A stretch of 64,000 bases of DNA from Escherichia coli (GTDB taxonomy: Bacteria; Pseudomonadota; Gammaproteobacteria; Enterobacterales; Enterobacteriaceae). Positions 1-3,000 of the stretch are shown one piece after another (the stretch's first letter is position 1; each line of letters starts with the position of its first letter). Position numbers: made by a program. The stretch lies in the NCBI RefSeq assembly GCF_024298765.1, contig NZ_CP101210.1; one strand, written 5' to 3'.

Positions 1-3000
1 GGGGGACGTCGTGGCGCAATGATTGGTGCTTTTGCGAATGGCTTATTGATTACCTTCCTGCCAGTACTGTTATTGCCGGTTCTTGGGGCGATAGGCTTTG
101 CTAATACGACCTTTTCCGATGCAGATTTTGGTGCTGTCGGCATCGTCCTCGGAAACCTGGCACGTTATCTCTCACCTTTTGCCATCACCGGACTTGTAGT
201 AGCGCTATTTGTGCTGCTGGTTGCCTGGAACATTTTCGCCAGTAACAAAATCGCTGCCAAAGCGCAGAAGAAGAGTGGAGCCAAATCATGAATGTTAAAG
301 AATTGACTCAATTTGCACGGGATATACGTATCCAGACGCTTAAATCATTAACTCATCTCGGCTTCGGTCATTATGGTGGCAGCATGTCGGTTGTGGAAAC
401 GCTGGCAGTGCTTTATGGCGCTGTAATGAAAATTGATCCTGCTGCTCCCGACTGGCCTGAGCGTGACTATTTTATCCTGTCCAAAGGACATGCCGGACCT
501 GCTCTCTACAGTACTCTGGCGCTGAAAGGCTACTTTCCACTGGAAGAATTAAGCACCTTAAATCAGAACGGAACCCGCTTACCAAGTCATCCGGATCGGC
601 TAAAAACGTGTGGTGTTGATAGCACCACAGGATCGCTGGGGCAGGGGATATCCATTGCCGGAGGGATGGCGCTGTCGCATAAACTGGCGGGGCGCAAGAA
701 TCGGGTTTTTTGTATTGTCGGCGATGGCGAACTTAATGAAGGCCAATGTTGGGAAGCTTTCCAGTTTATCGCGCATCATCGTTTGAATAACCTCACTGTG
801 TTTGTGGACTGGAACAAACAGCAGCTTGATGGTCAACTGGATGAAATTATTAATCCATTTGATTTGGAAGGAAAATTCCGGGCTTTCGGTTTTGATGTCG
901 TGACAGTGAAGGGCGATGATATTGAGGGCTTGTTGAATGTAGTTAAACCTGTCCTGCCAGCTGAGGCCAGACCGAGAGTGGTCATTCTCGATAGCATTAA
1001 AGGGCAGGGGGTGCCGTGTCTCGAGCAACTCAGTAATTCTCATCACTTACGCCTCACAGAAGAGATGAAGGGGACGCTAAACGAAACAATTCGCCAACTG
1101 GAGGCTATGCATGATTAATCTCGCACCGGCAGGACAAAAAGACAGCATTGAAATGCGCAAAGTTTATGCAGATTTTATCGCGCAACAGAGTAAAAACGTC
1201 AGTTCTGTCATTGCTCTTGAGGCTGATTTAATGAGTTCCATGGCAATGGACAGCGTGGCGCAGGATTATCCAGATCACGTCATTAATTGCGGCATTATGG
1301 AAGCCAATGTTATCGGCACAGCTGCAGGGCTGGCCTTAACCGGGCGCAAGCCATTCGTGCATACCTTTACCGCATTTGCCAGTCGTCGCTGTTTTGATCA
1401 ACTCTTTATGTCGCTTGATTACCAGGGCGCTAACGTCAAAGTTATAGCTTCTGATGCGGGTGTTGCTGCTTGCCACAATGGCGGAACACATATGTCATTT
1501 GAAGATATGGGAATTGTGCGCGGGCTGGCGCATTCGGTGGTGATGGAGATGACAGATGCCGTAATGTTCAGCGATATCTTGCGTCAACTCGTTGCACTGG
1601 AAGGATTTTATTGGATTCGTACCATTCGGAAGCAAGCAGCGAGTATTTACGCACCAGGTACAACCTTTACAATTGGCAAAGGGCAGGTATTACGTGAAGG
1701 TACGGATGTCACCTTAATTGCTAATGGCATTATGGTGGTGGAAGCCCTGGAGGCCGCACGTCAACTTGAGCTGGCTGGGGTAAGTGTAGCGGTGATTGAT
1801 ATGTTTACGCTCAAACCCGTTGATCGGATGTTAATTAAAAATTATGCCGAAAAAACAGGACGGATCGTAACATGTGAAAACCATAGTATTCATAATGGAT
1901 TAGGTTCAGCGGTTGCTGAAGTGCTTGTAGAAACTTGTCCTGTGCCCATGCGTCGGGTGGGGGTTAAAGAGCGGTATGGCCAGGTTGGAACTCAGGACTT
2001 TTTACAGAGAGAGTACGGGTTAACCGCGCAAGATATTGTGGCGGCAGCCAGAGAGCTATTGTAATTCATGGAGTTTGTTTACCATTCTGTTTTTCTTAAA
2101 AGTGAGTGTCTGTGCGGTCACTAAACTCGGTAATAAAGCAGTTCATTGCAGGATAAGAAGCGTTTGGTTGTGTCGTTTTACCGTAAGAACCGACCGCCGT
2201 ATGTAGCCATTAAGCCAGTATTGGTAACGTAGGTGCCCACCTTTTCAAACTGGTGGACGCCTGTTATGGAGCAAAAACATTATCCGCAGAACCCCGCAGA
2301 TCATTTTCAAATGAGTTAAACTTCAAATGGTTAAACTGGTTTTGCAACCAGGAGCCTCTGTTGCCCGTATTGCCCGGGAACACGATATCAATGATAACCT
2401 CCTGTTCAAATGGCTCAGACTCTGGCAGAACGTAAGGTAAAGGGAGATGAAAAAGGCAATAGCAGAACTGAGTGACAGTGAAACCATTCTGGCGTACAGG
2501 GTTGGATGGTGAAACTGATAAAAAACCCCCTCTGAAATTCTGTCAGAGGGGCTAGTCAATAAGGGAATAATATTCAACATGAAGATGTCTTCTGGGAATG
2601 TTTATATAGCAAATGCTTTCACTCCGGTAATTAATTTCCGTGATTAACTGCTTTCGATCAATAAAGGAATTGCAAAAGTGTGATCTTGTTCACGACATCG
2701 TGGATAATAATATGCCTGATGTCTGAATCCGGAAACAGTGCTCTGGCGGGTTTCATGTGAAGTTGACGGATAAAAAATCCGCACGACCAGACAGACGTGC
2801 GGTTTACGAAATTCGTAACAAGAGGCTTTTCTACGGATCACGTGGTGCGTGCCACGTGAAATTTTTGTAGCGCAAAATGTGTGATGTGTAAATACAAGGA
2901 AGGAAAAAAGTTAAATCGGTGGAAGTCCATACCTGCCACGTGTACGTCTGCATTCCTCGTTTTGAACAGAATTCTCACCAGACATCGTGAATTTCTCATT

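What the first reader, a model, noticed from the sequence alone, without database searches (positions are those of the whole stretch)
1..2440. Ascorbate-type PTS fragment plus split transketolase ending in an IS66 remnant
An EIIC-like C-terminus followed by translationally coupled transketolase N- and C-terminal subunit genes suggests an accessory pentose or L-ascorbate-like catabolic operon. An IS66 orf1 fragment and a hairpin (ccctctga...tcagaggg, ~2526..2551) follow immediately, so the module borders mobile DNA. The operon start lies outside the window.
Basis: partly seen in the sequence, partly recalled or inferred. Interest (0 to 1): 0.3.

Follow-up and report, generated by a model that had tools for sequence, protein, structure and literature searches.

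The report
Island-borne sugar PTS plus split transketolase
The start of the window holds the tail of an accessory E. coli sugar-uptake operon (an ascorbate-family PTS followed by a two-piece transketolase) that abuts a dead IS66 fragment; it is a real, already annotated module, orthologous to what I identify from memory as the Salmonella tktC locus, and the sugar it uses is still unknown.

Summary
Window 1-291 encodes the last 96 codons of an ascorbate-family PTS EIIC. Positions 288-1118 and 1111-2064 encode the N and C subunits of a split transketolase, with 4-nt and 8-nt gene overlaps. Positions 2183-2437 are the left end plus a frameshifted tnpA 5' piece of an IS682-like IS66-family element. 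Positions 2527-2551 form a 9-bp hairpin, but it reads as a minus-strand terminator and is not part of the IS.

In near-identical genomes the upstream genes are EIIA, EIIB and a divergent LacI-family regulator. There are no ula or sgb enzymes. This exact six-gene unit sits between pta/yfcC and yfcD in about 79 Enterobacterales species, including Salmonella, where from memory it is STM2340-2345 (tktC). In E. coli it lies on genomic islands in 132 of 5,426 complete genomes; 234 more keep only an IS1-truncated stub.

Half of the mappable UlaA ascorbate-contact residues are replaced, so ascorbate specificity is unsupported. The transketolase keeps its cofactor residues but has conserved substitutions at two substrate-channel positions.

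Best reading: a catabolite-controlled "PTS then transketolase" route for an unidentified carbohydrate. It is ordinary as a find, with one open question: the substrate.

The parts
1..291 (+). 3' end (last 96 codons plus TGA) of the EIIC gene of an L-ascorbate-family PTS (462 aa in full). The stop overlaps the next start as ATGA.
   Evidence: PF03611 hit on the fragment. The full gene in genomes matching the first 3.2 kb at 100% gives PF03611 at E 4e-153 and NCBIfam NF009549 at 989 bits against a cutoff of 890.
288..1118 (+). Transketolase N-terminal (ThDP diphosphate-binding) subunit, 276 aa. It carries His28, His68, His101, the GDG motif (Asp146), Asn176 and His252.
   Evidence: Pfam Transketolase_N E 1e-46. 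Best solved relative is 6YAK, the N chain of the C. hydrogenoformans split transketolase (E 3e-64). The listed residues are conserved in 77 orthologues.
1111..2064 (+). Transketolase C-terminal (pyrimidine-binding plus C-terminal domain) subunit, 317 aa. It overlaps the N-subunit gene by 8 nt. It has Arg16, Ser43, Glu64, His127 and Arg173, but Asp115, Cys121, His122 and Asn123 at the positions of canonical His, Gly, Glu and Asp.
   Evidence: Pfam Transket_pyr and Transketolase_C. Best solved relative is 6YAJ/6YAK (E 1e-70). The motif is invariant in 75 orthologues.
2066..2182 (.). 117-bp spacer between the end of the conserved six-gene module and the IS remnant. It has no homology to the ancestral pta/yfcC flank, and no convincing plus-strand terminator was found in it.
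   Evidence: Homology to the E. marmotae, E. albertii and Salmonella loci stops 1 nt after the TK-C stop codon.
2183..2437 (+). Remnant of an IS66-family (IS682-like) element: the left terminal repeat with a 4-bp deletion, and the first ~57 codons of tnpA (ATG at 2267) with two 1-bp deletions. tnpB, tnpC and the right end are missing.
   Evidence: Alignment to an intact IS682-like copy. Window 2188-2437 is 93-96% identical to IS66 tnpA regions in many E. coli genomes. PGAP annotates a frameshifted partial transposase here.
2520..2551 (-). Rho-independent-terminator-like hairpin (9-bp stem at 2527-2551, 7-nt loop) followed by a T-run on the minus strand. The transcript it would end is unidentified.
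   Evidence: Terminator scan. Fold of -17.6 kcal/mol, z = -3.5. No Rfam family reaches threshold.

Best explanation
The region is the distal half of a self-contained six-gene carbohydrate-utilisation module: a divergent LacI-family repressor, then EIIA-EIIB-EIIC of the L-ascorbate (SgaT/UlaA) PTS family, then the two subunits of a split ThDP-dependent transketolase. It is carried here on an E. coli genomic island.

Proposed mechanism:
1. In the absence of inducer, the repressor binds two perfect palindromes (TGATAGCGCTATCA) next to a CRP-dependent promoter. This step is inferred.
2. When induced, the PTS takes up an as yet unidentified sugar or sugar acid and phosphorylates it through His66 of EIIA and Cys7 of EIIB. 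The domains and candidate phosphorylation residues are shown; the chemistry is inferred.
3. The N and C transketolase subunits are translated from overlapping genes and assemble into an alpha2beta2 enzyme. This enzyme moves a two-carbon ketol unit from the resulting ketose phosphate, or from pentose phosphates derived from it, into the pentose-phosphate and glycolytic pools. This step is inferred from family membership and from the reported activity of the Salmonella orthologue TktC.

The unit is ancestral between pta/yfcC and yfcD in Enterobacterales and absent there in typical E. coli. It was re-acquired on islands, where an IS66-family insertion later decayed just downstream of it.
For: - Domain content and order.
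- Cofactor and catalytic residues of both transketolase subunits are present and conserved. The closest solved structure is an active alpha2beta2 split transketolase (PMC7661550).
- The same six genes, and only these, are kept together in 79 of 80 species loci. Homology ends 4 nt and 1 nt outside the terminal stop codons. The flanks are housekeeping genes: ackA, pta, yfcC on one side and yfcD-yfcH on the other.
- Purifying selection: dN/dS of 0.05-0.12 against E. marmotae.
- Regulatory signals: two invariant operators in 74 of 77 loci, and a CRP-like site in 62 of 77 centred 41.5 bp upstream of the inferred transcription start.
- "Uptake plus phosphorylation, then transketolase" recurs elsewhere with swapped parts. 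PTS(Asc)+TK cassettes occur with PRD or DeoR regulators, and one locus has an ABC transporter, an FGGY kinase and the transketolase.
- The S. pneumoniae ula2 operon has the same PTS-tktN-tktC layout and is transcribed as one unit (PMC4324149).
- A Salmonella orthologue (88% aa identity in the N subunit) sits in the same locus. TktC has been reported as a third functional transketolase (Shaw et al. 2018, cited in PMC12651746; paper not held, details from memory).
Against: - No substrate is known for any member of this orthologous group.
- E. coli already has TktA and TktB, so the need for a dedicated transketolase is unexplained.
- The C subunit replaces two canonical substrate-channel residues (EcTK His461 to Asp115, Asp469 to Asn123), so its preferred substrates may not be the classical ones. 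On the other hand, similar enzymes occur alone among housekeeping genes, so the signature need not mean a special substrate.
- 234 E. coli genomes have lost the module by an IS1-associated deletion, which shows it is dispensable.
- No expression data for E. coli were examined.
Confidence: 0.75

Rival explanations
1. It is a second, genuine L-ascorbate (or close analogue such as erythorbate) uptake system. It would rely on the chromosomal ulaG/DEF or sgb enzymes, with the extra transketolase draining the D-xylulose-5-phosphate they produce.
For: - The EIIC passes the NCBIfam model named "PTS ascorbate transporter subunit IIC".
- UlaA is the only solved relative.
- The analogous pneumococcal ula2 operon is induced 2-3 fold by ascorbate, and the main pneumococcal ula operon is followed by a transketolase gene (PMC4324149).
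- Ascorbate catabolism ends in a transketolase substrate (established ula pathway).
Against: - 5 of 10 mappable ascorbate-contact residues of UlaA are replaced: T86N, Y87E, I136H, Q139Y, Q195F. The replacements are invariant in 80 orthologues.
- No ula or sgb enzyme gene is linked in any of about 79 species.
- The regulator is LacI-type, with its best (sub-threshold) similarity to gluconate/idonate repressors rather than UlaR.
- The family model name reflects family membership, not tested specificity.
Confidence: 0.12
2. The transketolase is simply a spare housekeeping isozyme (as TktC can be in Salmonella). The adjacent PTS is functionally unrelated or mainly regulatory, so there is no dedicated catabolic route.
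For: - The Salmonella orthologue is reported to contribute to general transketolase activity (Shaw et al. 2018; from memory and the citation in PMC12651746).
- Related split transketolases with the same signature stand alone among housekeeping genes in some genomes.
Against: - The PTS genes and transketolase genes overlap or abut and are inherited strictly together across genera and even phyla, while the regulators vary.
- Conserved repressor and CRP sites point to inducible catabolism.
Confidence: 0.08
3. In E. coli the module is decaying island cargo with no current function.
For: - It is flanked by IS debris: an IS66 remnant downstream, and pseudogenes and IS elements around it.
- It is removed in 234 genomes, which keep only a 179-bp stub next to IS1.
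- It is present in only 2.4% of complete genomes.
Against: - PGAP annotates all six genes as intact (not pseudogenes) in both carriers examined, and the part checked (window 1-1880) is at least 99% identical in all 132 carriers.
- dN/dS is low.
- The regulatory sites are intact.
Confidence: 0.05

Closest known systems
Salmonella Typhimurium tktC locus (STM2340/STM2341 with the adjacent PTS genes and regulator STM2345)
   Same: Same six genes in the same order. The N subunit is 88% identical in protein and the 5.2-kb unit about 76% identical in nucleotides. In Salmonella it lies at the ancestral site ackA-pta-yfcC | module | yfcD. TktC is reported as a functional third transketolase.
   Different: The E. 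coli copy is on a genomic island rather than at pta-yfcD. The assignment of STM numbers to the Salmonella locus I fetched rests on gene order and my memory, because Shaw et al. 2018 is not held. The PTS substrate is unknown in Salmonella too.
Streptococcus pneumoniae ula2 operon (ulaR2-ulaB2-ulaA2-tktN-tktC; PMC4324149)
   Same: An Asc-family EIIB/EIIC followed by split transketolase N and C genes in one transcript, with no ula pathway enzymes inside the operon.
   Different: The pneumococcal operon is described with five genes, a transcriptional activator (UlaR2) and no separate EIIA. Here the regulator is a divergent LacI-type repressor and a separate EIIA is present. No sequence comparison with the pneumococcal proteins was made. 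Ascorbate induction there is modest.
E. coli UlaABC (SgaTBA) L-ascorbate PTS with ulaG/ulaDEF
   Same: Same PTS family and three-protein layout. His135, His194, Asp314 and Phe362 equivalents are kept in the EIIC.
   Different: A distant paralogue (E 4e-51). Half of the mappable ascorbate contacts are replaced. There is no lactonase, decarboxylase or epimerase, and the regulator family differs.
Carboxydothermus hydrogenoformans split-gene transketolase (PDB 6YAK/6YAJ; PMC7661550)
   Same: Closest solved structure for both subunits (E 3e-64 and 1e-70). Two-gene architecture forming an alpha2beta2 enzyme. ThDP- and metal-binding residues are shared.
   Different: The thermophile enzyme keeps the canonical THAG...GEDGASHQ channel motif. 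The E. coli C subunit has SDAG...CHNGGTHM.
AptA/AptB apulose-4-phosphate transketolase of the D-apiose cluster in E. coli ST131/ST1193 (PMC13001218)
   Same: Another accessory split transketolase in E. coli that sits in a dedicated sugar-catabolic cluster, also with overlapping genes.
   Different: Only 39% (N) and 28% (C) identical. It has a different channel motif (LNAGASYGPLASTHH), a different locus (next to entD), and an ABC transporter plus FGGY kinase instead of a PTS.
IS66 family / IS682
   Same: The left terminal repeat beginning GTAAG and the tnpA 5' region are about 94% identical (aligned).
   Different: Only 255 bp survive, with indels. It has no tnpB, no tnpC, no right end, and cannot transpose.

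Membership tests
PTS L-ascorbate (SgaT/UlaA, Pfam EIIC-GAT) family permease | Full-length PF03611 EIIC domain | tested here: met
   E 4e-153 over residues 12-408 of the 462-aa protein. The window fragment matches the profile's C-terminus.
PTS L-ascorbate (SgaT/UlaA, Pfam EIIC-GAT) family permease | Cognate EIIB (PF02302, N-terminal Cys) and EIIA (PF00359, His) encoded alongside | tested here: met
   EIIA and EIIB lie directly upstream in genomes matching the first 3.2 kb at 100%. The sequences show Cys7 in MAICGSGLGSS and His66 in AMPHAR.
UlaA orthologue (ascorbate-specific EIIC) | Conservation of the vitamin-C-contact residues defined in the ecUlaA structure (PMC6048161) | tested here: not met
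   Of 10 mappable contacts, 4 are kept, 1 is conservative (I358V) and 5 are replaced (T86N, Y87E, I136H, Q139Y, Q195F). All are invariant in 80 orthologues.
ula / sgb L-ascorbate utilisation operon | Linked lactonase (UlaG), 3-keto-L-gulonate-6-P decarboxylase and the two epimerases | tested here: not met
   None is present in the operon or in conserved flanks in E. coli or about 79 other species.
Split (two-subunit) ThDP-dependent transketolase | Separate adjacent genes for the PP domain and for the Pyr plus C-terminal domains | tested here: met
   ORFs of 276 aa and 317 aa overlapping by 8 nt. Best PDB hits are the two chains of a split transketolase.
Split (two-subunit) ThDP-dependent transketolase | Cofactor and catalytic residues: GDG...N metal/diphosphate motif, activating Glu, catalytic His residues | tested here: met
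   Asp146, Asn176, His28, His68, His101 and His252 in the N subunit. Glu64 and His127 in the C subunit. All are conserved in orthologues.
Split (two-subunit) ThDP-dependent transketolase | Canonical substrate-channel residues (EcTK Arg358, Ser385, His461, Asp469, Arg520; roles from established transketolase structural literature) | tested here: inconclusive
   Arg16, Ser43 and Arg173 are kept. His461 becomes Asp115 and Asp469 becomes Asn123. The same signature is widespread among split transketolases, so its functional meaning is open.
Split (two-subunit) ThDP-dependent transketolase | Ketol-transfer activity of the reconstituted enzyme | not testable with these tools
   Requires enzymology. 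Activity is reported for the Salmonella orthologue only (Shaw et al. 2018, not held).
Orthologue of the Salmonella tktC module | High identity plus a shared six-gene order | tested here: met
   88% aa identity. The gene order is identical and the locus lies next to pta/yfcC and yfcD. 76% nt identity over 5.2 kb.
AptAB apulose-4-phosphate transketolase | Close sequence similarity and an apiose-cluster context (kinase, ABC transporter) | tested here: not met
   28-39% identity and a different context.
IS66-family insertion sequence | Terminal inverted repeats, tnpA-tnpB-tnpC, 8-bp target duplication | tested here: not met
   Only the left repeat (damaged) and 171 nt of tnpA remain. It is a remnant, not an element. 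A complete copy with an 8-bp duplication lies elsewhere in the window.
Intrinsic (Rho-independent) terminator | GC-rich stem-loop followed by a U-run on the transcribed strand | tested here: met
   Met on the minus strand only: 9-bp stem with 6 GC pairs, then GUUUUUU. Function was not tested.

The most novel reading that the evidence does not exclude
The module encodes an undescribed two-step catabolic route. An Asc-family PTS would import and phosphorylate a ketose (for example a C5-C7 ketose from plant or host material). That phosphate ester would then be cleaved directly by a dedicated transketolase whose altered substrate channel (Asp115, His122, Asn123) is tuned to it. Identifying the sugar would assign a function to a locus conserved across Enterobacterales, including Salmonella, where the adjacent regulator may be the virulence regulator PagR. 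It would also explain why poultry-associated E. coli lineages re-acquired the module on islands.
Probability: 0.3. Interest if true: 0.6.

Novelty: new member of a known kind. Interest (0 to 1): 0.25.

Why it matters
As a genome feature it is ordinary. It is an annotated accessory metabolic operon next to IS debris, and it belongs to an orthologous group already studied in Salmonella.

Its residual value has three parts:
- The sugar taken up by this widely conserved PTS-transketolase cassette is unknown in any organism.
- E. coli lacks the unit at its ancestral pta-yfcD site and carries it only on islands. About half of a spread sample of carriers are poultry isolates, so it may be a niche-fitness trait of APEC/ExPEC lineages.
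- The conserved channel substitutions in the C subunit and the exact operator sequence give direct handles for finding substrate and inducer.

Tried and rejected
- Rfam scan of 1-6000: only one sub-threshold chance hit around the hairpin. No known RNA explains it.
- Literature:
  - Shaw et al. 2018 (tktC) and Carter et al. 2018 (apiose) could not be retrieved.
  - Searches for STM2340-2345 gave only passing mentions.
  - The recent BEN2908 genome paper does not describe this module.
  - The ExPEC tkt1 island is a different, full-length transketolase-like gene, so it was rejected as the same thing.
- AptAB (D-apiose) was considered as the identity of the split transketolase and rejected on 28-39% identity and a different context.
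- Flanking genes conserved with the module were examined for pathway enzymes. They are ackA, pta, yfcC, yfbV and yfcD-H, folX, which are housekeeping neighbours and not pathway members.
- I first read the Asp/Asn signature of the C subunit as evidence for a non-classical substrate. I weakened this after finding the same signature in stand-alone enzymes among housekeeping genes.
- I assumed the window was strain 104. It is not exactly: there is 1 mismatch in the first 15.2 kb and one extra IS66-family element.
- The names sources give to distant relatives were uninformative ("transketolase family protein").
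Full report
**1. What is in the sequence**

The window is Escherichia coli chromosome. Bases 1-3200 are 100% identical to many complete genomes, for example strain 104. The first 15.2 kb differ from strain 104 at one base.

- Window 1-291 encodes 96 residues matching the C-terminal end of Pfam EIIC-GAT.
- An ATGA overlap leads into a 276-aa ORF (288-1118) with the transketolase ThDP-binding domain.
- An 8-nt overlap leads into a 317-aa ORF (1111-2064) with the pyrimidine-binding and C-terminal transketolase domains.
- Shine-Dalgarno-like GGAG and GGAGG lie 6-8 nt before both internal starts. The arrangement is compatible with translational coupling, which I did not test.

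Downstream, 2183-2437 aligns with the left end of an intact IS682-like IS66-family element, from the terminal GTAAG repeat to about codon 57 of tnpA.
- It is 93-96% identical to tnpA regions in many genomes.
- It has a 4-bp deletion in the repeat and two frameshifting 1-bp deletions.
- Nothing from the rest of the element remains.

However, it lies 90 bp past the end of IS homology, and a T-run follows it only on the minus strand. It is a terminator-like site for an unidentified leftward transcript. No Rfam family accounts for it.

**2. The whole unit**

In genomes that match the first 3.2 kb at 100%, the genes upstream of the window are the rest of EIIC (462 aa), then EIIB (90 aa), EIIA (147 aa) and a divergently transcribed LacI-family regulator (339 aa). 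There is no lactonase, decarboxylase, epimerase or isomerase.

A scan of one genome per species found the EIIC at 77-97% identity in 80 loci.
- In 79 of these the same six genes occur in the same order.
- They span Escherichia albertii, Klebsiella, Enterobacter, Citrobacter, Raoultella, Kosakonia, Cedecea, Serratia, Rahnella, Hafnia, Ewingella, Erwinia and Mixta.
- The exception is Gilliamella, which lacks the transketolase genes.

The conserved neighbours are ackA, pta, yfcC and yfbV on one side and yfcD, yfcE, yfcF, yfcG, folX and yfcH on the other. These are housekeeping genes, not pathway partners.

Salmonella enterica and E. marmotae show the same placement. Nucleotide homology between the E. 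coli island copy and these ancestral loci begins 4 nt outside the regulator's stop codon and ends 1 nt after the transketolase C stop codon (window 2065).
- Identity is 91.9% to E. marmotae, 85.7% to E. albertii and 76% to Salmonella.
- The functional unit is therefore exactly these six genes.
- dN/dS against E. marmotae is 0.05-0.12 for every gene.

**3. Distribution in E. coli**

The operon (window 1-1880) is present in 132 of 5,426 complete genomes. It is always chromosomal and always at least 99% identical.

A further 234 genomes keep only the last 179 bp of the C-subunit gene. In the one genome examined this stub sits directly next to an IS1 copy and is followed by the same downstream DNA, which looks like an IS1-associated deletion.

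In this window the block lies on a large mosaic island at tRNA-Sec (selC; tRNA at 35162-35256, integrase next to it). Upstream, in strain 104, the island carries ireA, hlyE, the fec genes and pgtABCP. In APEC strain BEN2908 the same block lies among different, typical island-backbone genes.

Of 60 carriers sampled evenly down the ranking, 31 are poultry isolates. This is suggestive, but it has no proper denominator.

**4. How it probably works**

*Regulation (upstream of the window; inferred).* The regulator-EIIA intergenic region contains three conserved signals (L001 coordinates):
- Two copies of the perfect palindrome TGATAGCGCTATC(A) at 9961 and 9995, present as a pair in 74 of 77 loci.
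- A CRP-like TGTGA-N6-TCGCA site at 10010-10025, present in 62 of 77 loci.
- A -10-like hexamer whose position puts the CRP site centre 41.5 bp upstream of the inferred transcription start.

This is the pattern of an inducible, catabolite-controlled sugar operon.

*Uptake.* EIIA has the AMPHAR histidine and EIIB the N-terminal CGSGLGSS cysteine. The EIIC is a full-length member of the ascorbate PTS family. It is only a distant paralogue of E. coli UlaA (E 4e-51).

Mapping the vitamin-C contacts listed for the UlaA structure (PMC6048161) onto that alignment gives:
- Conserved: His135, His194, Asp314, Phe362.
- Conservative change: Ile358 to Val.
- Replaced: Thr86 to Asn, Tyr87 to Glu, Ile136 to His, Gln139 to Tyr, Gln195 to Phe.
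- All of these positions are invariant in 80 orthologues.

The pocket is conserved within this group but differs from UlaA. The NCBIfam name "ascorbate transporter" reflects family, not shown specificity.

*Transketolase.* Both subunits find their best solved relative in the active alpha2beta2 split transketolase of Carboxydothermus hydrogenoformans (E 3e-64 and 1e-70; PMC7661550).
- The N subunit has His28, His68, His101, the GDG motif (Asp146), Asn176 and His252.
- The C subunit has Arg16, Ser43, the cofactor-activating Glu64, His127 and Arg173.
- Where canonical enzymes read T-H-x-G...G-E-D-G-x-S-H-Q, this protein reads S-D-A-G...C-H-N-G-G-T-H-M.
- In E. coli TktA numbering, His461 becomes Asp115 and Asp469 becomes Asn123. 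From the established transketolase structural literature (not re-read here), these residues contact the substrate phosphate and the hydroxyl that sets stereoselectivity.
- The motif is invariant in 75 orthologues.

Among the 150 best representatives from a 1.8-billion-protein library, a large share of split-transketolase C subunits at 35-56% identity carry the same "D...NGGTH" signature. They occur in several contexts:
- PTS(Asc)-transketolase cassettes with a PRD-type or a DeoR-type regulator.
- An ABC transporter plus FGGY kinase plus transketolase locus.
- Other sugar clusters.
- Alone among housekeeping genes.

The recurring logic "import, phosphorylate, then transketolase", with interchangeable transport and regulatory parts, supports a direct metabolic link between the PTS product and the enzyme. 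The stand-alone cases warn against reading the signature as proof of an exotic substrate.

**5. Comparison with what is known**

- *Salmonella tktC locus.* This is the closest characterised relative. The Salmonella locus I retrieved has the gene order ackA, pta, yfcC, two transketolase genes, EIIC, EIIB, EIIA, LacI-type regulator, yfcD. That fits STM2337-STM2346 as I remember the LT2 numbering. TktC (STM2340/2341) is reported as a third functional transketolase (Shaw et al. 2018, cited in PMC12651746). I could not read the paper, so this identification is partly from memory.
- *PagR lead.* If the numbering holds, the regulator corresponds to STM2345, which has been named PagR and linked to SPI-2 control (PMC12413039, PMC12351708). 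This is an untested lead.
- *Pneumococcal ula2 operon.* It has the same PTS-tktN-tktC layout and is induced 2-3 fold by ascorbate (PMC4324149).
- *AptAB.* The ST131/ST1193 split transketolase of the D-apiose cluster is a different enzyme, with 28-39% identity and a different locus and context (PMC13001218).
- *tkt1 island of ExPEC.* This is unrelated.

**6. Verdict**

Its functional label is right at the level of family and unsupported at the level of "ascorbate or pentose".

The feature is a known kind of module, annotated in RefSeq and orthologous to a locus studied in Salmonella. It sits next to a dead IS fragment on a selC island.

What remains open is the substrate and why E. coli carries the unit only on islands. 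That question is moderately interesting and directly testable, but the finding itself ranks low.

Noticed in passing
window 1886-2064 and L003 7252-8179: 234 complete E. coli genomes keep only the last 179 bp of the transketolase C-subunit gene. In the one genome examined the stub is joined to an IS1 copy, with the downstream IS66 remnant intact, suggesting an IS1-associated deletion of the whole PTS-transketolase operon. In that genome a sul2/aph/tet(A)/floR resistance region follows.
   Followed up: partly
window 2438-3236: An unannotated 0.8-kb stretch lies between the IS66 remnant and the YadA-like gene and is conserved in about 368 genomes. It holds the minus-strand terminator-like hairpin (2520-2551) and a plus-strand one (2838-2859). 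No gene or known RNA explains them.
   Followed up: partly
window 3291-4550 and 4612-5067: A small YadA-like trimeric autotransporter adhesin (YadA anchor, E 2e-16) is followed by a 151-aa protein with a sigma-70 region-4-like HTH. This is a possible adhesin-regulator pair of the island.
   Followed up: no
window 5424-5762 (-) and 6267-9502: A c-type lysozyme inhibitor gene, then a nanE-like epimerase, a maltose/glucose-type PTS EIIC and a divergent RpiR-family regulator. This is another accessory sugar module on the same island.
   Followed up: no
window 20544-23242: A complete IS66-family element (tnpA, tnpB, tnpC on the minus strand; end begins GTAAGCG) flanked by an 8-bp duplication. It is absent from the otherwise near-identical strain 104 and so is a recent insertion.
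   Followed up: partly
window 33678-35256: A tyrosine integrase gene next to tRNA-Sec (selC, 35162-35256, minus strand) marks the island's attachment end. Core genes yicJ and yicI follow.
   Followed up: partly
window about 39554-46497: A BglG-type antiterminator, fructose-type PTS EIIA/B/C, two ketose-bisphosphate aldolases, a ROK kinase and a cupin-type isomerase lie between yicI and yicH. The gene content matches the ExPEC frz operon as I remember it. This is a second accessory PTS locus in the window.
   Followed up: no
L001 9961-10052 (about 2 kb upstream of the window start): Two invariant palindromic operators TGATAGCGCTATC(A), a CRP-like site and a -10 hexamer lie in the regulator-EIIA intergenic region. 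They are conserved from Escherichia to Erwinia and Rahnella.
   Followed up: yes
window 1450-1491 (TK-C residues 114-127): The conserved channel motif SDAGVAACHNGGTH replaces the canonical THxG...GEDGxSHQ. The same "D...NGGTH" signature marks a large, uncharacterised group of split transketolases in metagenomes.
   Followed up: partly
L092 5524-6543 (Salmonella locus): The LacI-type regulator of the orthologous Salmonella module may be STM2345, published as PagR, an activator of SPI-2. If so, the E. coli island carries a PagR orthologue. The locus-tag mapping is from memory and unverified.
   Followed up: partly
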